Notes: generated by a model from the letters alone, not told the origin. Shown: positions 1-22,768, counted from the first letter of the stretch. The stretch is 29,430 nt of DNA from a virus (IMGVR_UViG_2778261668_000002); one strand, 5' to 3'. Translations and numbers: made by a program.

Positions 1-981
1 TTATAACGTCACTCCGCCTTTTAGTGGATTCAGAGCGACGGCATTTTGCAGATAGTCAGGCGCAAGGTGCGCATAGGCCATCGTCTGCTGAATGCTCGCA
101 TGTCCCAGAATCTGTTGCAGTGCGATTATATTGCCCCCATTCATCATGAAATGGCTTGCGAATGTATGCCGCAGGATGTGGGTTGCCTGATTGGGTGGTA
201 TATCAGGTTTCACTCTGCGTAAAATCCCGCAAAATTTCTCATAATCAACTTTGAATAATTTGGCGCTGGCCTCCTCTTTAACTTTTTTCTCCAGTTCCTC
301 AGAAATCGGCACGGTTCGCTTTTTACCGTTTTTGGTTTTCAGGAAGGTAACCCTGCAATTTGTAATCTGTGCTGGTTTTAGCGTGGCAACTTCCGTCCAT
401 CTTCCTCCAGTGCTCAGACATAAAAGCGCGACAAGTAAGTCATCACCAGCCAAAACATTTAACAGTTTTTCGATTTCTGCTTTTTCCAGGAACGTCATTT
501 CAGGGTTGGCCTCCGCCAGTGGCGGCAGTCCGTGAATTGGGTGTTGCCCGGAAAATTCATCCAATTGAATTAATTTTGTGAACATGCCGGATAATCGGTA
601 CATGTCACGGTTTATCGTTGCGGCACTGATACCATCACGTAATCGCATGGAACGATAATCCATCAAAGCCCTTTTGCTCATCCTGCTCACTGGTATATCA
701 CCTATGCCGCTGATGGTTTTGAGTAGATGATTAAACTCTTTTGTTCCATGCTCGTGGTTTTGCCCGTGATATTTCCACCAGATGTCCAGCAACTCACTCA
801 AAGTCCGGCGGTCTGCTCGCTGGCCTCCCCATTCTTTCTGACTGGCATTGGCGATTGTGTATCGCTCAAATGCTAGTGCTTCAGCTTTTCTTTCGAATTT
901 CCTGCGGATGCGTTTTCCGTCGCGACCGCGAGGTCTAATGTCCACTTCATAGCGACCATCATCGAGCTTCTTAATTGCCAT
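1..981 (-). CDS. int: Tyrosine site-specific integrase (P2 Int family)
   Basis: Minus-strand ORF ending at position 1 with a C-terminal tyrosine-recombinase region (LRHTFASHFMMNGGNIIALQQILGH...MAYAH). Start placed at the ATG at 979-981 (MAIKKLDDGRYEV), which has a GGAGG Shine-Dalgarno 8 nt upstream; the track's longer ORF to 1011 has no ribosome-binding site. Confidence 0.9.
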   Translation of the reverse strand: MAIKKLDDGRYEVDIRPRGRDGKRIRRKFERKAEALAFERYTIANASQKEWGGQRADRRTLSELLDIWWKYHGQNHEHGTKEFNHLLKTISGIGDIPVSRMSKRALMDYRSMRLRDGISAATINRDMYRLSGMFTKLIQLDEFSGQHPIHGLPPLAEANPEMTFLEKAEIEKLLNVLAGDDLLVALLCLSTGGRWTEVATLKPAQITNCRVTFLKTKNGKKRTVPISEELEKKVKEEASAKLFKVDYEKFCGILRRVKPDIPPNQATHILRHTFASHFMMNGGNIIALQQILGHASIQQTMAYAHLAPDYLQNAVALNPLKGGVTL

Positions 982-1050
982 AAGAAAGCCCTCCGGCGCT
1001 GTATTCACCATCTTGGTAGCAAATGGTGAAAATGTAATCTTTATATAGAG

Positions 1051-1344
1051 TTAGCCAATCCTTTTCGCGGAGTGGTTGGACTCTGTTGACTCTGGCCCAA
1101 TGTGCGCGAGAGCCGGTGCGATTTGTCCTGCGTCCGGCGCGGTTTTATCTGTCATAAGCCATAGAGCATATTTTTGGAATGTGGGATGCATAGTGATTTT
1201 TAGCAAAGCTGTGCCACCGGGTTCAAAGTTTCCTCCTTCATATTTTTTAAGTGTGCTTAGCGGTAACTCTATGATTTCACAGAATTTTGATTGGCTTAGC
1301 CCTTCAGCCTCACGCAAGGCCTTAATCTTTTCGCTTAATTTCAT
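1051..1344 (-). CDS. C: Immunity repressor, P2 C-like HTH protein
   Basis: 97-aa minus-strand ORF divergent from cox, with an N-terminal helix-turn-helix (LSQSKFCEIIELPLSTLKKYEGG) and the P2 C-like motif QIAPALAHIGPE; it sits between int and cox. Confidence 0.8.
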   Translation of the reverse strand: MKLSEKIKALREAEGLSQSKFCEIIELPLSTLKKYEGGNFEPGGTALLKITMHPTFQKYALWLMTDKTAPDAGQIAPALAHIGPESTESNHSAKRIG

Positions 1345-2711: not shown

Positions 2712-3010
2712 TGTCCTGTTCTCATTCAGTTGTATTACTGAATAACGCCTTAAAAATCGCCGTTATGGAAAATGGTGATTTGTCTCTTATTCAACTTTGT
2801 CTTGATAAAGAAAAACGCGACATAACTGAATCTGTTATCGCGATTTATCAGAATGAATTAAACCTCCTGTCTGATGTGGTCAATTTACTTGTTAAACGCG
2901 CTGTATTCCACAAGCAAATTTCCTCAGTGGATGAACTGACAAAATTAACGACAGAACTTGCCAGTTATTGCGCTGATGTATCCAGGAAACTTAACGATAA
3001 AAGGAGCTGA
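2711..3010 (+). CDS. Early protein of unknown function (position of P2 orf81)
   Basis: ORF translationally coupled to the upstream gene; the track's ORF begins at a TTG at 2708, the ATG is at 2711. Confidence 0.55.
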   Translation: MSCSHSVVLLNNALKIAVMENGDLSLIQLCLDKEKRDITESVIAIYQNELNLLSDVVNLLVKRAVFHKQISSVDELTKLTTELASYCADVSRKLNDKRS

Positions 3011-3012
3011 TA

Positions 3013-3237
3013 ATGCCGGACAACGTAGATTTTATTCAGGAACAACAGGCTGAATTACTGGAGCGCCAGATTAACGCGGCAAGGGTAAAACATTGCGGTG
3101 TTTCTTCGCTGGTTTGCGAAGAGTGTGACGCGCCAATACCTGCTGCCCGTCGTGCGGCTTATCCGTCAGCCACGCGTTGTGTTTCCTGTCAGTCAGTCTT
3201 TGAAGCAAAAAACAAACATTACCGGAGAACGGCATGA
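3013..3237 (+). CDS. TraR/DksA-family C4 zinc-finger protein (position of P2 orf82)
   Basis: 74-aa ORF with CEECDAPIP...CVSCQ (CxxC-N17-CxxC) and an AAGGAG ribosome-binding site. Confidence 0.7.
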   Translation: MPDNVDFIQEQQAELLERQINAARVKHCGVSSLVCEECDAPIPAARRAAYPSATRCVSCQSVFEAKNKHYRRTA

Positions 3238-3509
3238 GTATTCGTATTGAAATTGGCGAACGTTATGTCGTTACCAGTGACAGCTTTCAGTTTATTCTCC
3301 ACGAGAAAAAGAGAGCGGAAAGCGGTAAAAACGCCGGTCAGGAATGGCTGGCAGTGGTTGGTTATTACCCGAAATTAAGCCAGCTCGTTTCCGGCCTGAT
3401 GCATCACGATATTCTGACCGGAAGCGCAAAGTCTTTTGCTGATTTAAACGCGCAGGTTGAGCAACTCAGCAGGCGTTGTTCAGAGGCTTTTGGCTCATAT
3501 GGCCGTTAA
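3234..3509 (+). CDS. Early protein of unknown function (position of P2 orf83)
   Basis: 91-aa ORF with GGAG ribosome-binding site; overlaps the A start by 11 nt. Confidence 0.55.
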   Translation: MSIRIEIGERYVVTSDSFQFILHEKKRAESGKNAGQEWLAVVGYYPKLSQLVSGLMHHDILTGSAKSFADLNAQVEQLSRRCSEAFGSYGR

Positions 3510-5784
3510 AGCCTCCGGGCGTTTTGTCCCTCCGTCAGCATTTGCCGCAGGCACCGGTAAGGCGTTTACCGGTGCTTATGCATGGAACGCGCCACGCGAG
3601 GCCGTCGGGCGGGAAAGACCCCTTACACGTGACGAGATGCGTCAGGTGCAAGGTGTTTTATCCACGATTAACCGCCTGCCTTACTTTTTGCGCTCGCTGT
3701 TTACTTCACGCTATGACTACATCCGGCGCAATAAAAGCCCGGTGCACGGGTTTTATTTCCTCACATCCACTTTTCAGCGTCGTTTATGGCCGCGCATTGA
3801 GCGTGTGAATCAGCGCCATGAAATGAACACCGACGCGTCGTTGCTGTTTCTGGCAGAGCGCGACCAGTATGCGCGCCTGCCGGGGATGAATGACAAGGAG
3901 CTGAAAAAGTTTGCCGCCCGAATCTCATCGCAGCTTTTCATGATGTATGAGGAACTCTGCGATGCCTGGGTGGATGCGCATGGCGAAAAAGAATCGCTGT
4001 TTACGGATGAGGCGCAGGCTCACCTGTATGGTCATGTTGCTGGCGCTGCACGTGCTTTCAATATTTCCCCGCTTTACTGGAGAAAATACCGTAAAGGGCA
4101 GATGACCACGAGGCAGGCATATTCTGCCATTGCTCGCCTGTTTAACGATGAGTGGTGGATTAGTCAGCTTAAAGGCCAGCGTATGCGCTGGCATGAGGCG
4201 TTACTGATTGCTGTCGGGGAGGTCAATAAAGACCGTTCACCTTATGCCAGTAAACATGCCATTCGTGATGTGCGTGCGCGCCGCCAGGCAAATCTGGAAT
4301 TTCTTAAATCGTGTGACCTTGAAAACAGGGAAACCGGCGAGCGCATCGACCTTATCAGTAAGGTGATGGGCAGTATTTCTAATCCTGAAATTCGCCGGAT
4401 GGAGCTGATGAACACCATTGCCGGTATTGAGCGTTACGCCGCCTCAGAGGGTGATGTGGGGATGTTTATCACGCTTACCGCGCCGTCAAAGTATCACCCG
4501 ACACGTCAGGTTGGAAAAGGCGAAAATAAAACCGTCCAGCTTAATCACGGCTGGAATGATGAGGCATTTAATCCAAAGGATGCGCAGCGTTATCTCTGCC
4601 GTATCTGGAGCCTGATGCGCACGGCATTCAAGGATAATGATTTACAGGTCTACGGTTTGCGAGTCGTCGAGCCACACCACGACGGAACGCCGCACTGGCA
4701 TATGATGCTTTTTTGTAATCCACGCCAGCGTAACCAGATTATCGAAATCATGCGTCGCTATGCGCTCAAAGAGGATGGCGACGAAAGAGGAGCCGCGCGA
4801 AACCGTTTTCAGGCAAAACACCTTAACCGGGGCGGTGCTGCGGGATATATCGCGAAATACATTTCAAAAAATATCGACGGCTATGCACTGGATGGTCAGC
4901 TCGATAACGATACCGGCAGGCCGCTGAAAGACACTGCCGCGGCTGTTACCGCATGGGCGTCAACGTGGCGCATTCCGCAATTTAAAACGGTTGGCCTGCC
5001 GACAATGGGGGCTTACCGTGAACTACGCAAATTGCCTCGCGGCGTCAGCATTGCTGATGAGTTTGACGAGCGCGTCGAGGCTGCACGCGCCGCCGCAGAC
5101 AGTGGCGATTTTGCGTTGTATATCAGCGCGCAGGGTGGGGCAAATGTCCCGCGCGATTGTCAGACTGTCAGGGTCGCCCGTAGCCCGTCGGATGACGTTA
5201 ACGAGTACGAGGAAGAAGTCGAGAGAGTGGTCGGCATTTACGCGCCGCATCTCGGCGCGCGTCATATTCATATCACCAGAACGACGGACTGGCGCATTGT
5301 GCCGAAAGTTCCGGTCGTTGAGCCTTTGACTTTAAAAAGCGGCATCGCCGCGCCTCGGAGTCCTGTCAATAACTGTGGAAAGCTCACTGGTGGTGATACT
5401 TCGTTACCGGCTCCCACACCTTCTGAGCACGCCGCCGCAGTGCTTAATCTGGTTGATGACGGTGTTATCGAATGGAATGACCCGGAGGTCGTGAGGGCGC
5501 TCAGGGGCGCATTAAAACACGACCTGAGAACACCAAACCGTCAGCAAAGAAGCGGAAGCCCGTTAAAAGCGCATGAAATAGCGCCATCGGCCAGACTGAC
5601 CCGGTCGGAACGAATGCAAATTACCCGTATCCGCGTTGACCTTGCTCAGAACGGTATCAGGCCGCAGCGATGGGAGCTTGAGGCGCTGGTGCGTGGCGCG
5701 ACCGTAAATTATGACGGGAAAAAATTCACGTATCCGGTCGCTGATGAGTGGCCGGGATTCTCAACAGTAATGGAGTGGACATGA
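3499..5784 (+). CDS. A: Rolling-circle replication initiator endonuclease (P2 gpA family)
   Basis: 761-aa product from the ATG at 3499 (MAVKASGRF...; the track's ORF starts at an upstream TTG). Contains a metal-binding HxH motif (EPHHDGTPHWHMMLF) and a catalytic-tyrosine motif (GYIAKYISKNIDGY) typical of rolling-circle Rep proteins. Confidence 0.9.
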   Translation: MAVKASGRFVPPSAFAAGTGKAFTGAYAWNAPREAVGRERPLTRDEMRQVQGVLSTINRLPYFLRSLFTSRYDYIRRNKSPVHGFYFLTSTFQRRLWPRIERVNQRHEMNTDASLLFLAERDQYARLPGMNDKELKKFAARISSQLFMMYEELCDAWVDAHGEKESLFTDEAQAHLYGHVAGAARAFNISPLYWRKYRKGQMTTRQAYSAIARLFNDEWWISQLKGQRMRWHEALLIAVGEVNKDRSPYASKHAIRDVRARRQANLEFLKSCDLENRETGERIDLISKVMGSISNPEIRRMELMNTIAGIERYAASEGDVGMFITLTAPSKYHPTRQVGKGENKTVQLNHGWNDEAFNPKDAQRYLCRIWSLMRTAFKDNDLQVYGLRVVEPHHDGTPHWHMMLFCNPRQRNQIIEIMRRYALKEDGDERGAARNRFQAKHLNRGGAAGYIAKYISKNIDGYALDGQLDNDTGRPLKDTAAAVTAWASTWRIPQFKTVGLPTMGAYRELRKLPRGVSIADEFDERVEAARAAADSGDFALYISAQGGANVPRDCQTVRVARSPSDDVNEYEEEVERVVGIYAPHLGARHIHITRTTDWRIVPKVPVVEPLTLKSGIAAPRSPVNNCGKLTGGDTSLPAPTPSEHAAAVLNLVDDGVIEWNDPEVVRALRGALKHDLRTPNRQQRSGSPLKAHEIAPSARLTRSERMQITRIRVDLAQNGIRPQRWELEALVRGATVNYDGKKFTYPVADEWPGFSTVMEWT

Positions 5785-6236
5785 TGGCAAAAATTCACGA
5801 GGTAAAGCTGCACGCAAAATATTTTGACCTTGTGCTGGAAGGAAAGAAACGCGCAGAGTTTCGGAAAAATGACCGTAATTATGAGCGCGGGGACACGTTG
5901 ATTTTGCATGAATGGGCGCAGGGTGTGTATACGGGGCGAAAGGTTGAAGCCCGGATAACAGATGTTACTGACCTGTCAGACTGGCTGGAAGATTATGTCT
6001 TGCTAAGTATTGAGCTGCTTAATACAGGCGCATATGAGATTGTGAACTGGAAAGAACTTAGTGAGCGTGGTCTGGTATTCAGAATTAATCATGAAATTAT
6101 GCATCAGCTCGGCCTTGCTGTTATGTATGCACCAGAGACGGGGATGTCTGGCGGGGCAATGGTTGCCACGGATGGAGCATGGAACTATTCAGATGAACAG
6201 ATTGAGCGTGCAAAGCAAAACGGGTGGCTTGGATAA
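5781..6236 (+). CDS. ASCH/PUA-like (DUF3850-type) protein with a C-terminal extension containing an HExxH motif
   Basis: Start ATG overlaps the A stop (ATGA at 5781-5784). N-terminal EVKLHAKYFDLVLEGKKRAEFRKNDRNYERGDTLILHEW resembles ASCH-like domains; the C-terminal part contains NHEIMH. Confidence 0.55.
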   Translation: MMAKIHEVKLHAKYFDLVLEGKKRAEFRKNDRNYERGDTLILHEWAQGVYTGRKVEARITDVTDLSDWLEDYVLLSIELLNTGAYEIVNWKELSERGLVFRINHEIMHQLGLAVMYAPETGMSGGAMVATDGAWNYSDEQIERAKQNGWLG

Positions 6237-6442
6237 TGCACAGAATACCGGGCGAGATACCGCAACATAACACTAAAAATATCAAGCTGATGGCTATTGT
6301 TCACCGTCTACAGCAGATTATGGTCAACGAAAATCTGACGCCTGACGAGCTGGTCGGGTGTGCCGAAATAGTCCGGGATAATTACGGGCGGCTTAATTAT
6401 ATCCGTCAGTCCAGAGTTGCTCCACCGCCACGCAGACTATAG
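6236..6442 (+). CDS. Small hypothetical protein, translationally coupled to the ASCH-like gene
   Basis: TAATG overlap at 6234-6238; 68 aa; no recognisable motif. The track shows it from a GTG at 6224. Confidence 0.4.
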   Translation: MHRIPGEIPQHNTKNIKLMAIVHRLQQIMVNENLTPDELVGCAEIVRDNYGRLNYIRQSRVAPPPRRL

Positions 6443-6616
6443 AAAACGCCGTCAGTCTTGAAACTTGTTTTCAGGGCTGGCGGGGTTGAACAACGAGCAT
6501 CGCGAGGCGTTAGTGGTATTGGAACCAATGAGAAAACAAAAAACTCAACGCCTCCCCTCATGTTTGATGGTATGGTCTTGTTTTTAGGTAATGAAGCTTT
6601 ATTCGGGTGACGTGTC

Positions 6617-6622
6617 TAATAT
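6617..6622 (+). promoter_or_regulatory. Candidate -10 element (TAATAT) for the cargo gene
   Basis: TAATAT lies 36 nt upstream of the 6658 ATG in the AT-rich leader; no convincing -35 hexamer, so this is weak. Confidence 0.3.
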
Positions 6623-6657
6623 AGCTTTCTGCATGACGTTAGAATGATGATGAGATC

Positions 6658-7260
6658 ATGTTATTAATGAATGAGAAAAAAAGACAAAAATATCTAAAGA
6701 TAATGTTTGAATGTCAAAAGCGACTTGAAACACTTCATGCTTTATCATCTGGAAGGATTGATGGCATTTATTTTCAAGTGTTAATTGAAATGGAGGCGTT
6801 GCAGCTTAGGAAGCTACTAGAGCTCATTGCATTTTCATCTCTAATTTCACATGAAAAAGCATACGAGAAGGTTACAAAGAAGATTGATGGTGTATGGAAG
6901 GCGAAGAATATATTTAAAGAGTTGGAAAAGATAAACCCTAACTTTTATCCAGTACCAATATCAGGAGTAACCAAAACGGGCTGGACGAAACTAACGGGAG
7001 GTTTTTTGACGAAAAAACAGTTTATCAAGCTATATGATGAATGCTCAAAACATATTCACGTAAGGAACCCATATCGGGTTAGGGAAAACTCGCTGGGGTT
7101 TCATAAAAAAGTTCCAGAGTATTTATCAAGAATTGAAACTCTACTGTTAAAGCACATTGTTTCTCTTGCCGGGAATGAAGAACTTCTTCTTGTAGATGTG
7201 CCTCATTATGAAGACTCTGTAACAGCTATAAAAATGAGCCACCTCGTTAAAATGGGGTGA
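6658..7260 (+). CDS. Orphan AT-rich cargo gene in the P2 tin/old-equivalent slot; candidate single-gene anti-phage defence or abortive-infection protein
   Basis: 200-aa ORF (start 6658 or 6667) in an island of about 30-35% G+C by hand count; K/E-rich, no transmembrane segment; preceded by a 215-bp non-coding AT-rich leader and followed by a hairpin terminator; sits between replication gene A and cos. Confidence 0.65.
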   Translation: MLLMNEKKRQKYLKIMFECQKRLETLHALSSGRIDGIYFQVLIEMEALQLRKLLELIAFSSLISHEKAYEKVTKKIDGVWKAKNIFKELEKINPNFYPVPISGVTKTGWTKLTGGFLTKKQFIKLYDECSKHIHVRNPYRVRENSLGFHKKVPEYLSRIETLLLKHIVSLAGNEELLLVDVPHYEDSVTAIKMSHLVKMG

Positions 7261-7295
7261 AAAATAAGCAATAAATAGTCGATTCTAGTGAACGG

Positions 7296-7320
7296 TCGGC
7301 TATTTTTAGCCGGATTTTTA
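7296..7320 (+). terminator. Rho-independent terminator after the cargo gene
   Basis: Stem CGGCT (7297-7301) / AGCCG (7308-7312) with a T-rich loop, followed by GATTTTTA. Confidence 0.5.
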
Positions 7321-7478
7321 TACTGTTTCCCCTTAATTACAGTCGTTTCTATTCATGCATGTGCTATTGCATCGAATTGCATGCGTTTTCATCCCCTGTT
7401 GCTTATGAGCGTTGTCAGTGCTGGCGCATTCTCGGTATGTTCATGCAACTGCATCAAAATCGCCCCATGAAGCGGGCG

Positions 7479-7497
7479 GGCGAGGCGGGGAAAGCAC
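7479..7497. other. cos cohesive-end site of P2-type phages
   Basis: GGCGAGGCGGGGAAAGCAC matches my recollection of the 19-nt P2 cohesive end; it lies where cos is expected, between the cargo locus and portal gene Q. Confidence 0.55.
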
Positions 7498-7639
7498 TGC
7501 GCGCTGGCGGTGGTGCTGATTTTATTTTTTCGGCGTCTCAGCGCGTCGTGATGGCGTTTAGATTGTGTGCCGGGGCGTCGGTGTGTCTGCGGGCTGTTTT
7601 GCGTGGAGGTGAGCGTGTGAGGGCGTGATGACGGGGTGT

Positions 7640-7661
7640 AAAAAAGCCGCCCGCAGGCGGC
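7640..7661 (-). terminator. Rho-independent terminator of the P-Q operon
   Basis: On the minus strand GCCGCC-(4 nt loop)-GGCGGC followed by TTTTTT, immediately downstream of the Q stop at 7667. Confidence 0.6.
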
Positions 7662-7666
7662 GATGT

Positions 7667-8701
7667 TCAGCCGTTGTCAGTGTCCAGTGAGTAGTTTTTA
7701 AAGCGGATGACCTCCTGACCGAGCCAGCCGTTTATCTCGCGGATCCTGTCCTGTAGCGGGATAAGCTCATTGCGGACAAAGACCTTTGCCACTTTCTCAA
7801 TATCACCCAACGACCCGACGTTCTCCGGCTTGCCGCCCATCAACTGAAAGGGGATGCGGTGCGCGTCCAGCAGGTCAGCGGCGCTGGCTTTTTTGATATT
7901 AAAAAAATCGTCCTTCGTTGCCACTTCACTGAGCGGGATAATTTTAATGCCGTCGGCTTTCCCCTGCGGGGCATAGAGAAACAGATTTTTAAAGTTGTTG
8001 CGGCCTTTCGACTTCACCATGTTTTCGCGAAGCATTTCGATATCGTTGCGATCCTGCACGGCATCAGTGACGTACATGATGTATCCGGCATGTGCGCCGT
8101 TTTCGTAATACTTGCGGCGAAACAGCGTGGCCGACTCATTCAGCCAGGCAGAATTAAGGGCGCTGAGATATTCCGGCAGGCCGTACAGCTCCTGATTAAT
8201 ATCCGGCTCCAGCAGGTGAAACACGGAGCCGGGCGTGAAGGCTGTCGGCTCGTTGAAGGACGGCACCCACCAGTAAACATCCTCTTCCACACCACGGCGG
8301 GTATATTTTGCCGGTGAGGTTTCCAGTCTGATGACCTTACCGGTGGTGCTGTATCGCTTTTCCAGAAACGCATTACCGAACACCAGAAAATCCAGCACAA
8401 AGCGGCTGAAATCCTGTTGCGAAAGCCACGGGTGCGGGATAAACGTTGAAGCCAGAATATTGCGTTTGACGTAAATCGGTGAGCTGTGATGCACGGCAGC
8501 ACGCAGGCTTTTTGCCAGACCGGTAAAGCTGACCGGTGGCTCATACCATCTGCCGTTACTGATACACTCGACGTAATCCAGAATGTCACGGCGGTCGAGT
8601 ACCGGCACCGGCTCACCAAAGGTGAATGCCTCCATTTTCGGGGCGCTGGCGGTCATTGTTTTTGCCGCAGGTTGCGGTGTTTTCCCTTTTTTCTTGCTCA
8701 T
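7667..8701 (-). CDS. Q: Portal protein (P2 gpQ family)
   Basis: 344-aa minus-strand ORF adjacent to cos; its start overlaps the P stop (TGATG); length matches P2 Q. Confidence 0.9.
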   Translation of the reverse strand: MSKKKGKTPQPAAKTMTASAPKMEAFTFGEPVPVLDRRDILDYVECISNGRWYEPPVSFTGLAKSLRAAVHHSSPIYVKRNILASTFIPHPWLSQQDFSRFVLDFLVFGNAFLEKRYSTTGKVIRLETSPAKYTRRGVEEDVYWWVPSFNEPTAFTPGSVFHLLEPDINQELYGLPEYLSALNSAWLNESATLFRRKYYENGAHAGYIMYVTDAVQDRNDIEMLRENMVKSKGRNNFKNLFLYAPQGKADGIKIIPLSEVATKDDFFNIKKASAADLLDAHRIPFQLMGGKPENVGSLGDIEKVAKVFVRNELIPLQDRIREINGWLGQEVIRFKNYSLDTDNG

Positions 8702-10473
8702 CAGTAAAACTCCAGAATGGTGGATGTCAGCGGGGTGCTGATACCGGCGGTGAGTGGCTCATTTAACAGGGCGTGCATGGTCGCCCAGGCGAGGTCGGCG
8801 TGGCTGGCTTCCTCGCTGCGGCTGGCCTCATAGGTGGCGCTGCGTCCGCTGCTGGTCATGGTCTTGCGGATAGCCATAAACGAGCTGGTGATGTCGGTGG
8901 CGCTGACGTCGTATTCCAGACAGCCACGGCGGATAACGTCTTTTGCCTTGAGCACCATTGCGGTTTTCATTTCCGGCGTGTAGCGGATATCACGCGCGGC
9001 GGGATAGAACGAGCGCACGAGCTGGAACACGCCGACACCGAGGCCGGTGGCATCAATTCCGATGTATTCGACGTTGTATTTTCCGGTGAGTTTGCGGATG
9101 GATTCAGCCTGGGTGGCAAAGTCCATGCCTTTCCACTGGTGACGCTCAAGTATTCTGAATTTGCCACCGGCCACCACCGGCGGTGCCAGTACCACGCATC
9201 CGGCGCTGTCGCCACGGTGTGACGGGTCGTAACCAATCCATACCGGGCGGGAGCCGAACGGATTTGCGGCAAACGGCGCATAGTCTTCCCATTCTTCCAG
9301 CGTGTCGACCATGCAGCGTTGCAGCTCCTCGAACGGGAACACCGACGCCTTGTCGTCAACAAATTCACACATGAACAGGTTTTTAAAATCGTCGGCGCTG
9401 TTTTCACGTTTGAGCTGCTCAATGTCGAACAGCGTGCAGCCGCCTTTCAGGGCGTCCTCAATGGTGACAATCTGCCGCCACTGGCCGTCCGCACAGAGAA
9501 GCCCACCGGCAAGGGCGTTATGACTGACGTCGATTTCCACGCGTTCGGCGGCGCTGGCGCGTCCCCGGTTAAACAGTTCACCCGACCAGAACGGGTAGGC
9601 GTCGTGCGCCAGCGTGGACGGGGTGGAGAAATAGGTCGAGCGCAGGTGACTCTGTGAGGCCATACCTGATGCCACCTTACGCAGTACCTGAAAATTCGGG
9701 ATCCAGAAAATCTCGTCGACGTACAGGTCGCCGTTATGGCTCTGCGCGGTGTTGGAGTTGGTGCCGAGAAAAATCAGTTTTGCGCCGTTATTGCCCAGGA
9801 CAATCGGGTCACCGGTCAGGTCAACGTCAACCAGACGGGCAAAGGCGATGATGTATTCGCGGAACACATACGCCTGCGTTTTACTGGCCGACAGAAAAAT
9901 CTGGTTATGGCCGGTTTTCAGGGCGCGCAGCAGCGCCTCGCGGGAAAAATAAAACGTCGCGCCAATCTGGCGGGATTTCAGGATATCGCGGATGCGGTGC
10001 TCAAGCCCGGCGCGATACCAGTGCAACTGATAGTCGAAAGACTGCTCAAAGAAAATCTGCTCCAGCTTTTCGATGGCCTCGTCACTGAAAAAATTCTTTT
10101 TCGGTTTGCGTCGCCCGCCTTTGTTGCGGTTAGCGACGTTCGGATTAAGGTCTGCCTCGTTGCCGGTCTGGTTGTAGCGGTTTACCCGTGCCAGTCGTTC
10201 AATCTGGCGTCCGAGCAGGTCAATTTCCTTGAAGTCACCGCCGGTTTTCTGCGGTTTGATAATGAGCTGGGTCAGCCGCGCTTCCAGACTCATTTCGACA
10301 CGGCTGATGGGGGCAACGCTGTCCCAGCCGTCGCGCTGTTTCCAGCTCTGCACCGTCGGGCGTTTCATCTGCAACATGGCGGCAATCTGCGGCACGGAAA
10401 ACCCCTGCCAGTACAGCAGCGCCGCCTGACGACGCGGGTCGTGTAAAAGAGTGGTGTCTGTGGTGATGGTCAT
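8701..10473 (-). CDS. P: Terminase large subunit (P2 gpP family)
   Basis: 590-aa product from the ATG at 10471-10473 (MTITTDTT..., GAGGT ribosome-binding site); the track extends it to a TTG at 10503. Size and position match P2 P. Confidence 0.9.
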   Translation of the reverse strand: MTITTDTTLLHDPRRQAALLYWQGFSVPQIAAMLQMKRPTVQSWKQRDGWDSVAPISRVEMSLEARLTQLIIKPQKTGGDFKEIDLLGRQIERLARVNRYNQTGNEADLNPNVANRNKGGRRKPKKNFFSDEAIEKLEQIFFEQSFDYQLHWYRAGLEHRIRDILKSRQIGATFYFSREALLRALKTGHNQIFLSASKTQAYVFREYIIAFARLVDVDLTGDPIVLGNNGAKLIFLGTNSNTAQSHNGDLYVDEIFWIPNFQVLRKVASGMASQSHLRSTYFSTPSTLAHDAYPFWSGELFNRGRASAAERVEIDVSHNALAGGLLCADGQWRQIVTIEDALKGGCTLFDIEQLKRENSADDFKNLFMCEFVDDKASVFPFEELQRCMVDTLEEWEDYAPFAANPFGSRPVWIGYDPSHRGDSAGCVVLAPPVVAGGKFRILERHQWKGMDFATQAESIRKLTGKYNVEYIGIDATGLGVGVFQLVRSFYPAARDIRYTPEMKTAMVLKAKDVIRRGCLEYDVSATDITSSFMAIRKTMTSSGRSATYEASRSEEASHADLAWATMHALLNEPLTAGISTPLTSTILEFY

Positions 10474-10646
10474 GAATACCTCGCCGTGATGAATACACGG
10501 CAAGGCTACTGAGTCGCGCCCCGCGATTCGCTAAGGTGCTGTTGTGTCAGTGATAAGCCATCCGGGACTGATGGCGGAGGATGCGCATCGTCGGGAAACT
10601 GATGCCGACATGTGACTCCTCTAATCACTATTCAGGACTCCTGACA

Positions 10647-18800: not shown

Positions 18801-19404
18801 TTCGCGCCTGCTGCCGACCGGCTCATCACCGCTTGAAGTTGCCGCCGCAAAAGCCTGTGCGGAAATTGAAAAAACGCCGGTCAGTATTCGTGAGCTGTGG
18901 AACCCGGACACCTGCCCGGCAAATCTGCTGCCGTGGCTGGCGTGGTCATTTTCGGTTGACCGCTGGGATGATAAGTGGCCGGAAGCGACAAAACGCGCTG
19001 TTATCCGCGATGCGTATTTCATTCACTGCCATAAGGGCACTATAGGCGCAATCCGGCGTGTGGTGGAGCCGCTCGGCTATCTGATTGAGGTAAGGGAGTG
19101 GTGGCAGCTCAACGAGGAGCCGGGGACGTTCCGTATCGTTGTTGGCGTGCTTGAGCAGGGTATTACCGAAGAAATGTATCAGGAGCTGGAGCGCCTCGTT
19201 GCTGATGCAAAACCGGCAAGCCGCCATCTGACGGGACTGGCTATCAGTTTAAGTACAAACGGCAACATTTTTGCCGATGCGGGATGCTATCACGGCGACG
19301 CCCTGACGGTTTATCCCTACACCCCGGAGGCCATTATTGTCGGAGGGGATTATTTCCCGGCCTCGGCCATTCATTTAATTGATAACCTGAGAGTAAACGC
19401 ATGA
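18793..19404 (+). CDS. I: Baseplate protein (P2 gpI family), longer than the P2 protein as I remember it
   Basis: 203-aa ORF overlapping the J stop; synteny. Confidence 0.8.
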   Translation: MSDSRLLPTGSSPLEVAAAKACAEIEKTPVSIRELWNPDTCPANLLPWLAWSFSVDRWDDKWPEATKRAVIRDAYFIHCHKGTIGAIRRVVEPLGYLIEVREWWQLNEEPGTFRIVVGVLEQGITEEMYQELERLVADAKPASRHLTGLAISLSTNGNIFADAGCYHGDALTVYPYTPEAIIVGGDYFPASAIHLIDNLRVNA

Positions 19405-20732
19405 CAGTGAAATACTACGCCATTCTGACTAATCAGGGCGCAGCACGGCTGGCTAACGCGACGATGCTCGGCAGTAAGCTGAATCTGACGCAAATGGCCG
19501 TTGGTGATGCGAATGGTGTCTTGCCGACACCAGACCCGGCACAGACAAAACTGATTAACCAGAAACGCATCGCGCCGCTGAATCTTCTGAATGTTGACCC
19601 GAACAACCAGAGCCAGATTATTGCGGAGCAAATCATCCCTGAGAACGAGGGCGGATTCTGGATCCGTGAGATTGGGCTTTATGATGATGAAGGCGTACTC
19701 ATTGCGGTGGCGAACTGCCCGGAAACGTACAAACCGCAGTTGCAGGAAGGCAGCGGTCGTACCCAGACTATCCGCATGATTCTGGTTGTCACGAATACCG
19801 AAGCTATCACGCTGAAAATCGACCCGTCGGTGGTACTGGCGACCCGTAAATACGTGGATGATGAAGTCCTGGAATTAAGGCTGTATGTGGATGACCAGAT
19901 GAGGAACCATATTGCCGCACAGGATCCTCATACCCAGTATGCACAGAAACATAATCCGACATTTACCGGAGAACCAAAAGCGCCGACGCCTGCCGCAGGA
20001 AATAACACCACGCGGATTGCGACCACTGAGTTTGTTCAGGCCGCTATTACCGCTCTGATTAACGGTGCGCCAGCCACGCTGGACACACTGAAAGAAATTG
20101 CCGCAGCCATTAACAATGACCCGAAATTCAGCACCACCATTAACAATGCGCTGTCAGGTAAGCAGCCACTGGATGAGACGCTGACTCATTTGAGTGGAAA
20201 GGATGTTGCCGGTCTTCTCGCATACCTTGGTTTAGGGGAAGGCTCTGCTTTGCCGGTTGGCGTCCCCATTCCGTGGCCGTCAGCAACACCCCCAACGGGA
20301 TGGCTTAAGTGCAACGGAGCGGCGTTCACGGCCTCCCAGTACCCTAAGCTGGCTCAGGCCTATCCGGCGCTCAGACTGCCTGATCTACGCGGGGAGTTTA
20401 TCCGGGGATGGGATGATGGGCGTGGGGTTGATGCAGGAAGGGAATTACTGTCAAGCCAGGAGCATACCGTCATATCCCACAATCACGCGATTCCTACGAC
20501 GGTTAATACTCCAACTGCTATCCCTCCAGGTGTAGAGCAGGTGATAGCAAATGAAACTATTTTTTCTCCTGCAGCTCAATACGGATGTGACTATTGGGCT
20601 AATGGAGGCAGGACATTCACCTATATGTCTGGCGGCAAAAATGGTGCGGAGAACATCAATGATGCCTCATCAATGAAAGGTGAAACTCGTCCACGCAACG
20701 TCGTATTTAACTACATCGTGAGGGCTGCATAA
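19401..20732 (+). CDS. H: Tail fibre protein H: constant N-terminal part plus the currently expressed invertible C-terminal part
   Basis: 443 aa; N-terminus MTVKYYAILTNQGAARLANA typical of P2-like fibres; the C-terminal part contains RGEFIRGWDDGRGVD. The hix-like site at 20215-20240 lies inside the coding frame. Confidence 0.85.
   Translation: MTVKYYAILTNQGAARLANATMLGSKLNLTQMAVGDANGVLPTPDPAQTKLINQKRIAPLNLLNVDPNNQSQIIAEQIIPENEGGFWIREIGLYDDEGVLIAVANCPETYKPQLQEGSGRTQTIRMILVVTNTEAITLKIDPSVVLATRKYVDDEVLELRLYVDDQMRNHIAAQDPHTQYAQKHNPTFTGEPKAPTPAAGNNTTRIATTEFVQAAITALINGAPATLDTLKEIAAAINNDPKFSTTINNALSGKQPLDETLTHLSGKDVAGLLAYLGLGEGSALPVGVPIPWPSATPPTGWLKCNGAAFTASQYPKLAQAYPALRLPDLRGEFIRGWDDGRGVDAGRELLSSQEHTVISHNHAIPTTVNTPTAIPPGVEQVIANETIFSPAAQYGCDYWANGGRTFTYMSGGKNGAENINDASSMKGETRPRNVVFNYIVRAA
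20215..20240. repeat. hix-like 26-bp recombination site (left) inside gene H
   Basis: TTCTCGCATACCTTGGTTTAGGGGAA; 22 of 26 positions, including the central TTGGTTTAGG, match the reverse complement of the site at 22094-22119, and it resembles the hix/gix consensus as I remember it. Confidence 0.6.
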
Positions 20733-21334
20733 TGGTCAAAGCTGAATTAAATCAGGACATGATCGCCACGGTGGCCGGTGAAATCACCGTCTACAACTAC
20801 GATGGCGAGACGCGCGAATATCTTTCCACATCAACTGAATATCTTGCGGTTGGCGTCGGCATCCCGGCATGTTCTTGTTTAGATGCACCAGTTACACATA
20901 AAGCTGGTTATGCAATCTGCCGTTCTGCAGATTTTAACTCATGGGAATATGTGCCAGACCATCGCGGTGAAATTGTCTATAGCACCGAAACGGGAGATAC
21001 CAAAGAAATCACAACTCCGGGCGACTATCCCGAAAATACAACCACCCTCGCCCCGTTAACGCCATACGATGAATGGGATGGTGAGAAATGGGTGACAGAT
21101 ACTGAGGCACAGCATAGCGCCGCAGTAGGCGCGGCAGAAGCACAGCGTCAGTCACTGATTGATACTGCAATGGCTTCCATTAGTCTGATTCAACTGAAAT
21201 TGCAGGCCGGGCGGAAGCTGATGCAGACAGAAAACACCCGACTTAACGCTGTGCTGGATTACATTGACGCGGTGACGGCAACAGATACCAGCACCGCGCC
21301 GGACGTCATCTGGCCTGAACTGCCGGAGGCGTAG
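20732..21334 (+). CDS. G: Tail fibre assembly chaperone (gpG/Tfa family), inside the invertible segment
   Basis: 200-aa ORF with a TAATG overlap with H. Confidence 0.75.
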   Translation: MVKAELNQDMIATVAGEITVYNYDGETREYLSTSTEYLAVGVGIPACSCLDAPVTHKAGYAICRSADFNSWEYVPDHRGEIVYSTETGDTKEITTPGDYPENTTTLAPLTPYDEWDGEKWVTDTEAQHSAAVGAAEAQRQSLIDTAMASISLIQLKLQAGRKLMQTENTRLNAVLDYIDAVTATDTSTAPDVIWPELPEA

Positions 21335-21746
21335 GCCATTCAATATCTGGCGCACCGGAAGTATCGACCAGTTCCAGTGCGTCCAGATAATCCAGCCACA
21401 AATTATATTGCGCCAGTTCCTCACCTTTCAGGCGACCAATCGCCGCTTTACCAGGCCATTGCTTACTGTTTATGTATTCGTTGACCTGATCAATCAATTG
21501 CTGCTTTTCCAGTTCGGCTGCGGCAATTTGTTCCTCATGAGTTGGCGGTGGAATATCAATCCATGCAGGCATTCCGTCGATGACGCCTCTGTATTTTCCT
21601 TCTGGTGCTTCCTTCATAAATTCGGCGGCAACAGTGTCGTCAATTTCGATTCCATCATCGGGCCATTCGCCGGATTCCTGATAAGCGATTTTAAGCTCCA
21701 CAGGGAAAAACGCATTTTTATCGGCACTGAAAATATATTTCTGCAT
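21306..21746 (-). CDS. Alternative tail fibre assembly chaperone (Tfa), opposite orientation
   Basis: 146-aa minus-strand ORF; its C-terminus (LVDTSGAPDIEWPTPPA) is similar to the gpG C-terminus (ATDTSTAPDVIWPELPEA). Confidence 0.7.
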   Translation of the reverse strand: MQKYIFSADKNAFFPVELKIAYQESGEWPDDGIEIDDTVAAEFMKEAPEGKYRGVIDGMPAWIDIPPPTHEEQIAAAELEKQQLIDQVNEYINSKQWPGKAAIGRLKGEELAQYNLWLDYLDALELVDTSGAPDIEWPTPPAVQAR

Positions 21747-21748
21747 TT

Positions 21749-22147
21749 CTACCGTCCTATCGAAATATAACTGAATCTGTATTGCTGTGAGATATCACTG
21801 GTTGCCACACGCCACGCTGAATTACTGATATGTTCAAAATTTACAGACAAAACCTGCGGGGCAGGATTCGACGGGTCTGACTGAACGGCATCAGACATAA
21901 CACTGACTGAAACCATTGGCTGATTAGGGAATGGTATAGGGAAGTGTCCACTGATAAAGCGGGTCGTGTTTCCTGAAAAAGTGCCAAACTGAACAATATA
22001 TCCACCTGGTAGCCTGAACCATCCCGAACCAGAAGCGAATGCTCCCATATCCGGTATCTGATTATCTCCTGTGCCCACATCCCTTTTCGCCGCTTCTCCT
22101 AAACCAACGTTTATGAAAATGCAGAGATAACGGGCAACTGGCATCAT
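21749..22147 (-). CDS. Alternative tail fibre C-terminal segment, silent in this orientation; would fuse to the constant part of H after inversion
   Basis: Minus-strand reading frame running into the hix-like site at 22094-22119 and encoding ...VGLGEAAKRDVGTG..., which matches ...AYLGLGE at the hix site inside H. Confidence 0.65.
   Translation of the reverse strand: MMPVARYLCIFINVGLGEAAKRDVGTGDNQIPDMGAFASGSGWFRLPGGYIVQFGTFSGNTTRFISGHFPIPFPNQPMVSVSVMSDAVQSDPSNPAPQVLSVNFEHISNSAWRVATSDISQQYRFSYISIGR
22094..22119. repeat. hix-like 26-bp recombination site (right), about 55 bp upstream of the invertase gene
   Basis: TTCTCCTAAACCAACGTTTATGAAAA; inverted relative to the site at 20215-20240. Confidence 0.6.
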
Positions 22148-22174
22148 CTCCGGTTTTTATTCAGGGGGATGCTC

Positions 22175-22768
22175 ATGCTTATTGGCTATGTACGCGTGTC
22201 AACAAATGACCAGAACACGGAATTGCAGCGTAACGCGCTGGAGTGCGCGGGATGTGAGCGGATTTTTGAGGACAAAATCAGCGGCACGAAGTCCGACAGG
22301 CCGGGACTGAAAAAACTGCTCAGGACATTATCGGAGGGGGATACACTGGTAGTCTGGAAGCTGGACCGGCTGGGGCGTAGTATGCGGCATCTGGTCATTC
22401 TGGTTGAGGAGCTGCGCGAACGCGGCATTAATTTTCGCAGCCTGACGGATGCTATTGATACCAGCACGCCGATGGGGCGTTTTTTCTTTCATGTGATGGG
22501 TGCCCTGGCTGAAATGGAACGAGAACTCATTGTCGAGCGGACTCGGGCCGGGCTGGAAGCGGCCAGAGCCAAAGGTCGTATTGGTGGCAGACGACCGAAA
22601 CTCACCGCGAGTGAGTGGGAGCAGGCCGGGCGTTTGCTGGCTGCAGGGGAGTCACGTCAACGCGTGGCACTGATTTTTGATATTGGTCTGTCCACGCTCT
22701 ATAAAAAATTTCCCTCATCAGCGACAAAGAATAAATTGTGTCATCCCTTAGCCAACCGGGACAAATAG
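22175..22768 (+). CDS. Hin/Gin/Cin-family serine DNA invertase
   Basis: N-terminus MLIGYVRVSTNDQNTELQRNAL with the catalytic serine context and a C-terminal HTH (GLSTLYKKF); GGGGG ribosome-binding site 6 nt upstream of the ATG at 22175. Confidence 0.9.
   Translation: MLIGYVRVSTNDQNTELQRNALECAGCERIFEDKISGTKSDRPGLKKLLRTLSEGDTLVVWKLDRLGRSMRHLVILVEELRERGINFRSLTDAIDTSTPMGRFFFHVMGALAEMERELIVERTRAGLEAARAKGRIGGRRPKLTASEWEQAGRLLAAGESRQRVALIFDIGLSTLYKKFPSSATKNKLCHPLANRDK

What the first reader, a model, noticed from the sequence alone, without database searches (positions are those of the whole stretch)
6443..7330. AT-rich single-gene cargo in the P2 tin/old slot: candidate undescribed anti-phage or abortive-infection gene
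The island sits between replication gene A (with its two coupled downstream ORFs) and cos, which is where P2 carries tin and old. I know this slot as a recognised hotspot for anti-phage systems in P2-like prophages. It holds one 200-aa ORF (6658-7260) whose composition (about 20-40% G+C per 60-nt line, roughly one third overall) differs sharply from the flanking core genes (over 50%), with its own AT-rich leader and a hairpin terminator at 7296-7320. The protein is K/E-rich, looks helical, has no transmembrane segment and no motif I can assign to Old, Tin, a retron, a nuclease or a toxin-antitoxin family. Cargo in this slot is normally expressed from the lysogen and protects it against superinfecting phage.
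Basis: partly seen in the sequence, partly recalled or inferred. Interest (0 to 1): 0.85.

Follow-up and report, generated by a model that had tools for sequence, protein, structure and literature searches.

The report
Orphan HEPN-like gene in P2 hotspot
A P2-type prophage carries, in its known anti-phage cargo slot, one foreign gene from a large unannotated protein family that also travels as an integron cassette, and it is a good but untested candidate for a one-protein phage-defence gene.

Summary
A single 197/200-aa ORF (6667 or 6658 to 7260, G+C 0.36 against 0.54 for the window) with an AT-rich leader and a terminator-like hairpin fills the gpA-cos-gpQ slot of a P2-like prophage. The flanks are conserved among P2-like phages and the cargo is rare: 20 of 5,426 E. 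coli genomes and one isolated phage.

It is not wholly undescribed. Rousset et al. 2022 list this exact protein as P2-hotspot "system #58" (70 occurrences), without annotation, and it is absent from their table of tested systems.

New here:
- The family is large (2,262 clusters at 50% identity) but matches nothing in Pfam, NCBIfam, PADLOC or PDB sequences.
- It is under strong purifying selection and has no conserved neighbour.
- In marine gammaproteobacteria and Vibrio cholerae it is a genuine single-gene integron cassette. It also sits on plasmids and in restriction-modification islands.

Most likely it is a solo HEPN-like abortive-infection or exclusion protein, working like HepS or AbiV (confidence about 0.45). 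Defence and RNase activity are inferred, not shown.

The parts
5748..6236 (+). Left flank: ORF coupled to gene A, with DUF3850/ASCH and DUF7415 domains. It is not part of the cargo.
   Evidence: Pfam DUF3850 E 3.5e-18, ASCH 5e-11; phrog_1812; annotated as a DUF3850 protein in phage vB_YpM_50 and in E. coli SCU-316.
6224..6442 (+). Left flank: conserved 72-aa ORF of P2-like phages, function unknown.
   Evidence: phrog_11386 E 2.7e-41. In the Salmonella 186-like prophage its homologue (69 aa, L003 8835-9044) lies downstream of the cargo instead, so the slot has more than one insertion point.
6445..6487 (.). Conserved, very stable hairpin at the left edge of the hotspot. It lies within the last stretch shared with P2, Wphi and other P2-like phages.
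   Evidence: RNA fold -27.3 kcal/mol, z -6.3, 0 of 200 shuffles as good. Window 6445-6514 matches 13 other P2-like phage records at 90-93%. No T-run follows on the + strand; TTTTC follows on the - strand (read from the sequence).
6515..6666 (+). AT-rich leader of the cargo gene, with a -10-like TAATAT at 6617-6622. No convincing -35 was found.
   Evidence: G+C 0.33-0.37. TAATAT aligns with TATAAT (preceded by TTGGCG at 16 nt) in the Salmonella and E. chuandaensis orthologous loci. The promoter scan found nothing on the + strand here.
6667..7260 (+). Cargo gene: a 197-aa basic protein with a HEPN-like predicted fold (alternative start at 6658 gives 200 aa). RefSeq WP_021519103.1, 'hypothetical protein'; phrog_13799; Rousset 2022 P2 system #58.
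7296..7321 (+). Terminator-like hairpin TCGGCTATTTTTAGCCGG followed by ATTTTTAT, 36 nt after the stop codon.
   Evidence: Terminator scan. The fold of 7255-7335 is not exceptional on its own (z -1.4).
7368..7497 (.). Right flank: conserved cos-proximal DNA, ending in the 19-nt P2 cos sequence at 7479-7497.
   Evidence: Homology to other P2-like phages resumes at window 7368-7445. Many phage records start at window 7479, which is their cosL. Exact match to GGCGAGGCGGGGAAAGCAC, none expected by chance.
7667..8701 (-). Right flank: portal gene Q.
   Evidence: Pfam Phage_portal; annotated as portal protein in related phages.

Best explanation
The island is a self-contained one-gene accessory module of leader, ORF and terminator, sitting in the cos-proximal defence hotspot of a P2-like prophage. 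Its product is a basic, soluble protein of about 23 kDa, predicted to be a helical bundle of the HEPN type with a small added beta-sheet.

The gene family moves between genomes as a single gene. It is an integron cassette in marine gammaproteobacteria and Vibrio cholerae. It is prophage-hotspot cargo in Escherichia, Enterobacter and Salmonella. It also occurs on plasmids and in genomic islands.

My best reading is that it is a stand-alone abortive-infection or superinfection-exclusion protein. In this model it is made at a low level in the lysogen and held inactive, probably as an oligomer. A component of an incoming unrelated phage switches it on. It then binds or cuts RNA (tRNA, mRNA or rRNA), so the infected cell stops supporting phage growth. 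This is how the solo HEPN proteins HepS and AbiV are reported to work.

Shown: the anatomy, the mobility, the absence of a partner gene, purifying selection and the fold resemblance. Inferred: expression in the lysogen, anti-phage activity, oligomerisation, the trigger and the RNA target.
For: 1. Position. The gene lies between gpA and cos/gpQ, the published P2 hotspot. Flanks are conserved and cargo is variable and rare: 20 of 5,426 E. coli genomes, 70 of 18,150 P2 loci, and one isolated phage, held as two records, of 50,697 phage records.

2. Company. In an Enterobacter P2-like prophage the same slot also holds an AbiLi/AbiLii-like pair. A V. cholerae copy sits next to a KAP NTPase that matches PADLOC candidate PDC-S49, and an AAA_15/21 ATPase lies further down the array. 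Distant members lie beside MmeI-type and DpnII-type restriction-modification genes, NERD, RhuM and integrases.

3. Autonomy. No conserved neighbour was found in 21 loci. In Marinobacter sp. BW6 and V. cholerae it is a cassette of about 0.65 kb bounded by attC/VCR sites.

4. Precedent. About 18% of the unknown V. cholerae cassettes tested, and about a third of unknown mobile-integron cassettes, gave phage resistance. These include one-protein HEPN-type cassettes: Esos, AbiV and an AbiU2-like protein. HepS is a partner-less prophage HEPN abortive-infection protein.

6. A real protein. There are 2,262 family representatives at 50% identity. dN/dS is 0.07-0.13 among enterobacterial orthologues. 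Near-invariant polar residues are Y12, R22, E44, R51, E55, H134, N137 and H166. The pI of 9.5 fits nucleic-acid binding.
Against: - There are no experimental data for this protein or for any family member that I could find.
- The hotspot also carries non-defence cargo, and most candidates tested there were inactive.
- The defining Rx4-6H motif is not conserved. The window protein has R142-x6-H149, but R142 is not conserved even among the closest marine relatives, and H149 is conserved only in the 41-sequence close subfamily, not in the wider family.
- No HEPN, AbiV or other Abi profile matches any of the 118 members.
- Two of four distant members sit alone among housekeeping genes.
- No clear promoter was found in the window.
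Confidence: 0.45

Rival explanations
1. It is a defence gene but not an enzyme. The protein would be a non-catalytic HEPN-like binder that blocks a phage protein or complex directly, as P2 Tin poisons T-even replication, rather than cutting RNA.
For: The catalytic Rx4-6H motif is absent from the family consensus. The conserved polar residues (E44, R51 and E55 on one face of helix 2; R22; H134; N137; H166) could equally form a buried salt-bridge network or a binding surface. The slot's founding member Tin is, from my knowledge of P2 biology, such an exclusion protein, and the slot assignment is. The context evidence is the same as for the best explanation.
Against: Eight near-invariant polar residues across more than 2,000 diverged clusters look more like an active or ligand site than like a surface matched to one phage protein. 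A binder aimed at one phage family would not be expected to be conserved from Vibrio to Thiobacillus.
Confidence: 0.15
2. It is a non-defence accessory gene ('moron'): a small RNA- or nucleotide-binding protein that helps the host or the mobile element in another way, such as stress response, regulation or RNA metabolism. On this view it merely rides in variable regions.
For: The hotspot also contains partition systems and a toxin gene, and 5 of 8 candidates tested there gave no protection. Machine-learning scores cited for P2 unknowns flag only 15-32% as antiviral. Most integron cassettes tested gave no phage phenotype. Two distant members are lone inserts among housekeeping genes.
Against: The family has a patchy, strain-variable distribution. 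It is carried on four kinds of mobile element. It sits next to Abi and restriction-modification genes in several loci. Its best fold matches are conflict-system toxins.
Confidence: 0.25
3. It is a counter-defence or inter-element competition factor. It would serve the prophage itself, for example by neutralising a host defence system or interfering with P4-type satellites, rather than protecting the cell from other phages.
For: It lies next to cos, in the region where P2 and P4 carry competing cargo. It is small, single and carried by mobile elements.
Against: It occurs as promoterless cassettes in sedentary chromosomal integrons and as lone chromosomal genes, where a phage-serving anti-defence role makes little sense. 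It is present in only one isolated phage among 50,697 phage records. It shows no resemblance to any described anti-defence protein in the searches run.
Confidence: 0.1
4. It is an orphan toxin of a toxin-antitoxin or addiction module, or a decaying remnant with no current function.
For: HEPN proteins are frequent toxins paired with MNT antitoxins, and the top structural hits are such toxins. Truncated copies of 123-124 aa are common in Salmonella (231 contigs).
Against: No antitoxin-like neighbour was found in any of 21 loci, and the cassettes hold a single ORF. Purifying selection is strong and the full length is conserved across the family.
Confidence: 0.05

Closest known systems
HepS (Gifsy-1 prophage of Salmonella Typhimurium; Sargen et al., Nature 2026, PMC13043305)
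   Different: HepS has a canonical R100-x4-H105 motif that is essential for defence, and this family has no conserved Rx4-6H. No sequence similarity to any PDB chain was detected. The prophage type (lambdoid against P2-like) and the slot differ. I could not obtain the HepS sequence to compare directly.
AbiV and other one-protein HEPN abortive-infection cassettes (AbiV/brcN, Esos, Taranis/AbiJ-like, the V. mimicus AbiU2-like protein)
   Same: These are single proteins, most of them HEPN or HEPN-like only, that confer phage resistance and travel as integron cassettes, with homologues in prophages. This family is likewise an integron cassette with a HEPN-like fold.
   Different: No match to the Pfam HEPN_AbiV, AbiU2 or Abi_C models or to the PADLOC Abi models for any of 118 members. 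Sequences of Esos and the BRiC proteins were not available for comparison. The V. cholerae member found here is on only 32 contigs, so it is not a standard cassette of the pandemic strain from which Esos was cloned.
P2 tin and old (the reference cargo of this slot)
   Same: They occupy the same genomic slot between gene A and cos. They are lysogen-expressed exclusion genes in phage P2 (and established P2 biology).
   Different: There is no sequence or profile similarity (PADLOC). Old is an ATPase-TOPRIM nuclease of about 590 aa, whereas this is a 197-aa helical protein. Here one gene replaces the pair of genes in the P2 slot.
Rousset et al. 2022 P2-hotspot 'system #58'
   Same: It is the identical 200-aa sequence, recorded 70 times between gpA and gpQ in E. 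coli genomes.
   Different: That entry is only a catalogue line with no domain, note or test. The family size, integron origin, fold and conserved residues are added here.

Membership tests
HEPN superfamily (catalytic ribonuclease type) | Up-and-down helical bundle of the HEPN type | tested here: inconclusive
HEPN superfamily (catalytic ribonuclease type) | Conserved Rx4-6H motif at the start of the last core helix | tested here: not met
   Near-invariant residues across 118 diverse members are Y12, R22, E44, R51, E55, H134, N137, P138 and H166, and no R-x4-6-H pair is among them. R142-x6-H149 of the window protein is not a family motif: R142 is replaced in the marine relatives and H149 is not conserved in the wider family.
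HEPN superfamily (catalytic ribonuclease type) | Match to a curated HEPN profile (Pfam HEPN clan families, PADLOC Abi/HEPN models) | tested here: not met
   No HEPN family appears among the hits for 41 and 118 members at E up to 1 and 10. No PDB sequence hit was found with either profile.
HepS-type solo HEPN defence | Single gene with no conserved partner, prophage-borne | tested here: met
   No conserved neighbour in 21 loci. It is the only gene in the slot in the window and in two Enterobacter loci.
HepS-type solo HEPN defence | Anti-phage phenotype that depends on the HEPN histidine, and tRNA cleavage on a phage trigger | not testable with these tools
   This needs plaque assays, mutants and RNA analysis.
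P2 gpA-gpQ hotspot cargo (Rousset et al. 2022) | Lies between replication gene A and portal gene Q next to cos, with conserved flanks and cargo that varies among P2-like phages | tested here: met
   The protein itself is listed as system #58.
Integron gene cassette | Single ORF bounded by attC sites (R'' RYYYAAC ... R' GTTRRRY hairpin), within an array of cassettes | tested here: met
   This is met for the homologues. Marinobacter sp. BW6 has attC 7930-7992, ORF 8001-8585 and attC 8594-8650 inside a repeat array. V. cholerae copies have canonical VCRs on both sides in two strains with different neighbours. Of 19 non-enteric loci, 15 have a GTTRRRY core within 30 nt upstream, and in 12 the stop codon overlaps a TAAC(A/T)A core.
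Integron gene cassette | The same features in the window copy itself | tested here: not met
   No attC-like element flanks the window ORF. Similarity among the enterobacterial copies covers only the ORF and about 60 nt of leader. The window copy is prophage cargo, not a cassette.
P2 Old / Tin | Sequence or profile similarity to Old (ATPase-TOPRIM) or Tin | tested here: not met
   PADLOC gave no hit at E up to 10, and Pfam gave none.
Type II toxin-antitoxin (HEPN-MNT) | Adjacent nucleotidyltransferase or other antitoxin gene | tested here: not met
   No recurrent neighbour was found, and the cassettes contain one ORF.

The most novel reading that the evidence does not exclude
The family may be a previously unrecognised branch of HEPN-like proteins that has replaced the Rx4-6H ribonuclease site with a different conserved constellation (E44, R51 and E55 on helix 2; R22; H134-x2-N137-P138; H166). 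On this reading it acts as a complete one-protein anti-phage system with a new chemistry or a new mode of activation. It would be shared between integron cassette pools of marine bacteria and the P2/186 prophage hotspots of enterobacteria.
Probability: 0.3. Interest if true: 0.65.

Novelty: new variant of a known kind. Interest (0 to 1): 0.5.

Why it matters
If the gene protects against phage, it would add a compact (about 0.6 kb) one-protein defence module. It would also give a name and function to a family of more than 2,000 sequence clusters that current annotation resources leave blank.

It would link two 'banks' of defence genes that have been studied separately: integron cassette arrays in marine bacteria and the cos-proximal hotspot of P2-like prophages in gut bacteria. 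One gene family would be seen moving between them.

The missing Rx4-6H motif means either a non-catalytic HEPN-like sensor or blocker, or a new active site on an old fold. Either would be informative for how solo HEPN defences are controlled.

If it does not protect, it is a useful warning that position in a hotspot is not enough to call a defence gene.

Tried and rejected
- Profile searches of the protein and of 41 and 118 relatives against Pfam, NCBIfam and PADLOC gave nothing beyond chance. PHROGs gave only phrog_13799, function unknown.
- PDB sequence searches with two profiles gave nothing. Foldseek against the PDB and the viral structure set found nothing significant. The afdb50 library was not available.
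- Rfam on 6200-7700 gave no hit.
- I looked for a conserved partner gene by all-against-all BLAST of neighbours in 21 loci. Only unrelated LysR regulators and the P2 core genes recurred.
- Longer family members (260-360 aa) were scanned for fused domains and showed no Pfam domain. By eye, some carry Cys-rich zinc-ribbon-like or membrane extensions.
- I tried to find out whether the published HEPN-like cassette 'Esos', the BRiC proteins, the DefensePredictor systems or the 2026 P2/P4 study include this protein. No sequences or accessions matching it were found in the texts and supplements held. The Brenes and Laub 2025 paper is not held.
- I tried to obtain HepS from the Gifsy-1 record of strain LT2 for a direct comparison. 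No ORF with an R-x4-H at about residue 100 is present there, so this was dropped.
- The profile of 118 sequences was too diverse for the locus finder, so the 41-sequence profile was used instead.
- I considered and rejected the idea that the ORF is spurious, that it is a core P2 gene, and that the window copy is still an integron cassette.

Full report
**What is in the window**

The window is most of a P2-like (Peduovirus) prophage. Integrase is at 1-1011 (-), the C-like repressor at 1051-1344 (-) and cox at 1466-1753. Replication gene A is at 3457-5784 (Phage_GPA, E 6e-123). A DUF3850/ASCH ORF follows at 5748-6236 and a conserved 72-aa ORF at 6224-6442. Portal Q is at 7667-8701 (-) and terminase P at 8701-10503 (-), followed by the head and tail genes. 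The exact 19-nt P2 cos sequence is at 7479-7497. The nearest isolated phage is Yersinia phage vB_YpM_50, which is 98.5% identical over 5700-8700.

**Checking the observation**

- The ORF 6658-7260 is real. Its G+C is 0.357 (GC3 0.33), against 0.536 for the window, and 6451-7450 is the lowest-G+C stretch of the whole window.
- A terminator-like hairpin with a T-run lies at 7296-7321.
- The protein is basic (pI 9.5), 21% K+E, and has no membrane segment.
- Homologues, RefSeq and the Shine-Dalgarno positions in orthologues favour the second in-frame ATG at 6667, giving 197 aa.
- Homology to other P2-like phages stops at about 6514, just after a very stable conserved hairpin at 6445-6487 (-27.3 kcal/mol, z -6.3). 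It resumes at 7368-7445.
- The foreign segment is therefore about 850 bp and holds exactly one gene.
- I found no consensus promoter on the + strand. A -10-like TAATAT at 6617-6622 aligns with TATAAT in the Salmonella and Enterobacter chuandaensis copies.

**The slot**

Rousset et al. 2022 define the gpA-gpQ region next to cos as a diversity hotspot of P2-like phages. They report 1,650 gene arrangements in 18,150 E. coli loci. P2 has old and tin there. They also note that it holds non-defence cargo: partition systems in about a quarter, and a cytolethal distending toxin in about 2%. Three of eight newly tested candidates protected against phage.

Their Table S5B lists the identical 200-aa protein as system #58, with 70 occurrences and no domain or note. 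It is absent from their table of tested systems.

In the collections searched here, the full island is in 20 of 5,426 complete E. coli genomes, always chromosomal, and in one isolated phage (two records of 50,697). So the cargo is rare, the flanks are shared, and the gene is not a core phage function.

A later study of P2 and P4 hotspots reports that 19% of P2-like elements have only unknown genes at this locus. It found that 6 of 8 unknown P4 loci tested were protective. Machine-learning scores flagged 15-32% of P2 unknowns as antiviral.

**The protein family**

A word-indexed search found 44 clusters in gammaproteobacteria. An exhaustive profile search found 2,262 representatives at 50% identity with E up to 1e-3, of which 1,494 reach 1e-10. 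Most are about 200 aa and stand alone.

None of 118 diverse members matches any Pfam-A, NCBIfam or PADLOC model, and neither profile matches a PDB sequence. The only label is phrog_13799, function unknown.

Across the 118 members the near-invariant residues are Y12, R22, E44, R51, E55, A58, F96, Y97, P98, P100, L117, H134, N137, P138, I159, L162, L163 and H166.

Among enterobacterial orthologues dN/dS is 0.07-0.13, so this is a working protein.

A few longer members carry extensions without Pfam domains. By eye, some are Cys-rich and zinc-ribbon-like, and one has membrane segments.

**Where the family lives**

*Prophage slots.* In Enterobacter P2-like prophages the gene occupies the same slot. 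It is alone in two loci, and in one locus it sits beside a pair that matches AbiLi/AbiLii. In a Salmonella 186-like prophage it lies after tum (DinI-like) and an unrelated 243-aa ORF. This copy is seen on more than 600 contigs.

*Integron cassettes.* In marine gammaproteobacteria the start codon is preceded by a conserved GTTAAACGGTAAAGC. The stop codon overlaps TAACAA at the foot of a hairpin that ends in GTTRRRY. These are the R' and R'' cores of attC sites.
- In Marinobacter sp. BW6 the gene is one cassette (attC 7930-7992, ORF 8001-8585, attC 8594-8650) inside an array of repeated attC sites.
- In V. cholerae it is flanked on both sides by canonical VCR repeats. It has different neighbours in two strains, inside arrays with ParE/Phd, acetyltransferase and DUF645 cassettes.

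*Plasmids.* It is also on a 6.6-kb MobQ plasmid of Paracoccus and a 194-kb Halomonas plasmid.

*Distant members.* These lie next to an MmeI-type restriction-modification cluster with integrases, or near DpnII-type restriction-modification genes, NERD and RhuM genes, or alone among housekeeping genes.

*No partner.* All-against-all comparison of neighbours in 21 loci found no recurrent partner.

The gene is therefore an autonomous, highly mobile one-gene module. The enterobacterial copies share only the ORF and about 60 nt of leader, and the window copy has no attC.

**Structure**

AlphaFold2 with the 41-sequence alignment gave a confident model (pLDDT 86.2, pTM 0.86). It has six helices: two long ones (6-30 and 39-62), two short ones (66-76 and 82-92) and two more (119-133 and 145-164), plus a small five-stranded sheet.

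Foldseek found nothing significant, although HEPN toxins again head the list.

I read this as a HEPN-like fold at roughly two-to-one odds. The defining Rx4-6H motif is not conserved. The window protein has R142-x6-H149, but R142 is replaced in the marine relatives and H149 varies in the wider family. The family-wide polar residues are elsewhere. It should not be filed as a canonical HEPN ribonuclease.

**How it most likely works**

Published cases give a clear model for small solo HEPN proteins on mobile elements. HepS of Gifsy-1 is constitutively made, inactive at rest, activated by tail-tip proteins of infecting siphoviruses, and then cuts tRNA anticodon loops. AbiV, the HEPN-like-only cassette Esos, an AbiJ-like cassette and an AbiU2-like cassette are single proteins that confer resistance from integron cassettes.

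Four things point the same way: the slot, the mobility, the lack of a partner, and the fold with its basic charge. On that basis I propose the same logic here: a lysogen-expressed, trigger-activated, RNA-directed abortive-infection or exclusion protein.

I put this at about 0.45. The rivals are:
- a non-enzymatic blocker (0.15);
- a non-defence accessory function (0.25);
- a counter-defence or inter-element factor (0.10);
- an orphan toxin or remnant (0.05).

Only the anatomy, distribution, selection and fold resemblance are shown. Expression, protection, trigger and target are inferred.

**Novelty and verdict**

The gene was already catalogued but never annotated or tested. Added here are:
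- the size of the family and its complete absence from curated profile libraries;
- its identity as an integron cassette elsewhere;
- its HEPN-like fold without the canonical motif;
- a defined set of conserved residues to mutate.

It is best classed as a new variant of a known kind, the solo HEPN-type defence candidate. Interest is moderate. Many unknown cargos sit in this hotspot, and the decisive experiment, a plaque assay, is simple but not yet done.

Noticed in passing
window 21306-22768: There appears to be an invertible tail-fibre module. A Gin/Cin-type serine recombinase (22169-22768, Resolvase plus HTH_7) lies next to an opposite-strand alternative fibre C-terminus (21749-22147) and a second tail-fibre assembly gene (21306-21746). 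These follow fibre gene H (19401-20732) and assembly gene G (20732-21334). This suggests host-range switching as in Mu or P1. I did not search for the inverted repeats.
   Followed up: partly
window 6445-6487: A very stable hairpin (-27.3 kcal/mol, z -6.3) lies directly after the stop of the 72-aa ORF. It is conserved in P2, Wphi and other P2-like phages and marks the left edge of the hotspot. It has no T-run on the + strand but is followed by TTTTC on the - strand. It may stop transcription coming leftward out of the cargo.
   Followed up: partly
E. coli records NZ_CP054371, NZ_CP059130, NZ_CP182336 (L045 1-7332): Several 'complete' E. coli chromosome records begin exactly at the start codon of the prophage replication gene A, so the cargo sits at 2945-3832, as it does in the phage record. 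The assemblies were apparently rotated to a prophage replication gene rather than to dnaA.
   Followed up: no
window 6689-6717, minus strand: The best promoter-like match in the region (TTGACA-17-GATATT, 10 of 12) lies inside the 5' end of the ORF on the opposite strand and would give an RNA antisense to the start codon. The number of promoter-like sites in the region is not above chance, and the bases are constrained by coding, so this may mean nothing.
   Followed up: partly
L008 7258-8978 (Enterobacter P2-like prophage, same slot): A 398-aa ATPase and a 172-aa protein on the opposite strand match the PADLOC models AbiLi (E 1e-25) and, weakly, AbiLii. They share the slot with the homologue of the cargo gene.
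   Followed up: yes
Salmonella homologue cluster (P0059 and relatives; L003-L006): Truncated forms of 123-124 aa are common (231 contigs for one of them), alongside the full 198-aa form on more than 600 contigs. This suggests repeated inactivation in some Salmonella lineages. In these 186-like prophages the slot also holds a 243-aa membrane-anchored ORF and, in L003, a 334-aa ORF (L003 9934-10938) on the minus strand. Neither has a Pfam or PADLOC match.
   Followed up: no
L033 2099-3865 and 7847-8591 (V. cholerae superintegron): Other cassettes in the same array include a KAP-family NTPase, directly upstream, that matches PADLOC candidate PDC-S49 (E 9e-32). Several cassettes downstream there is an AAA_15/AAA_21 ATPase. 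Both are defence-like cassettes in the same array.
   Followed up: partly
L043 (Paracoccus sanguinis plasmid pPspOM7, 6,587 bp), 1708-2322: A distant family member (29% identity) is one of the few genes on a tiny MobQ plasmid that also carries a RelE/ParE toxin gene.
   Followed up: no
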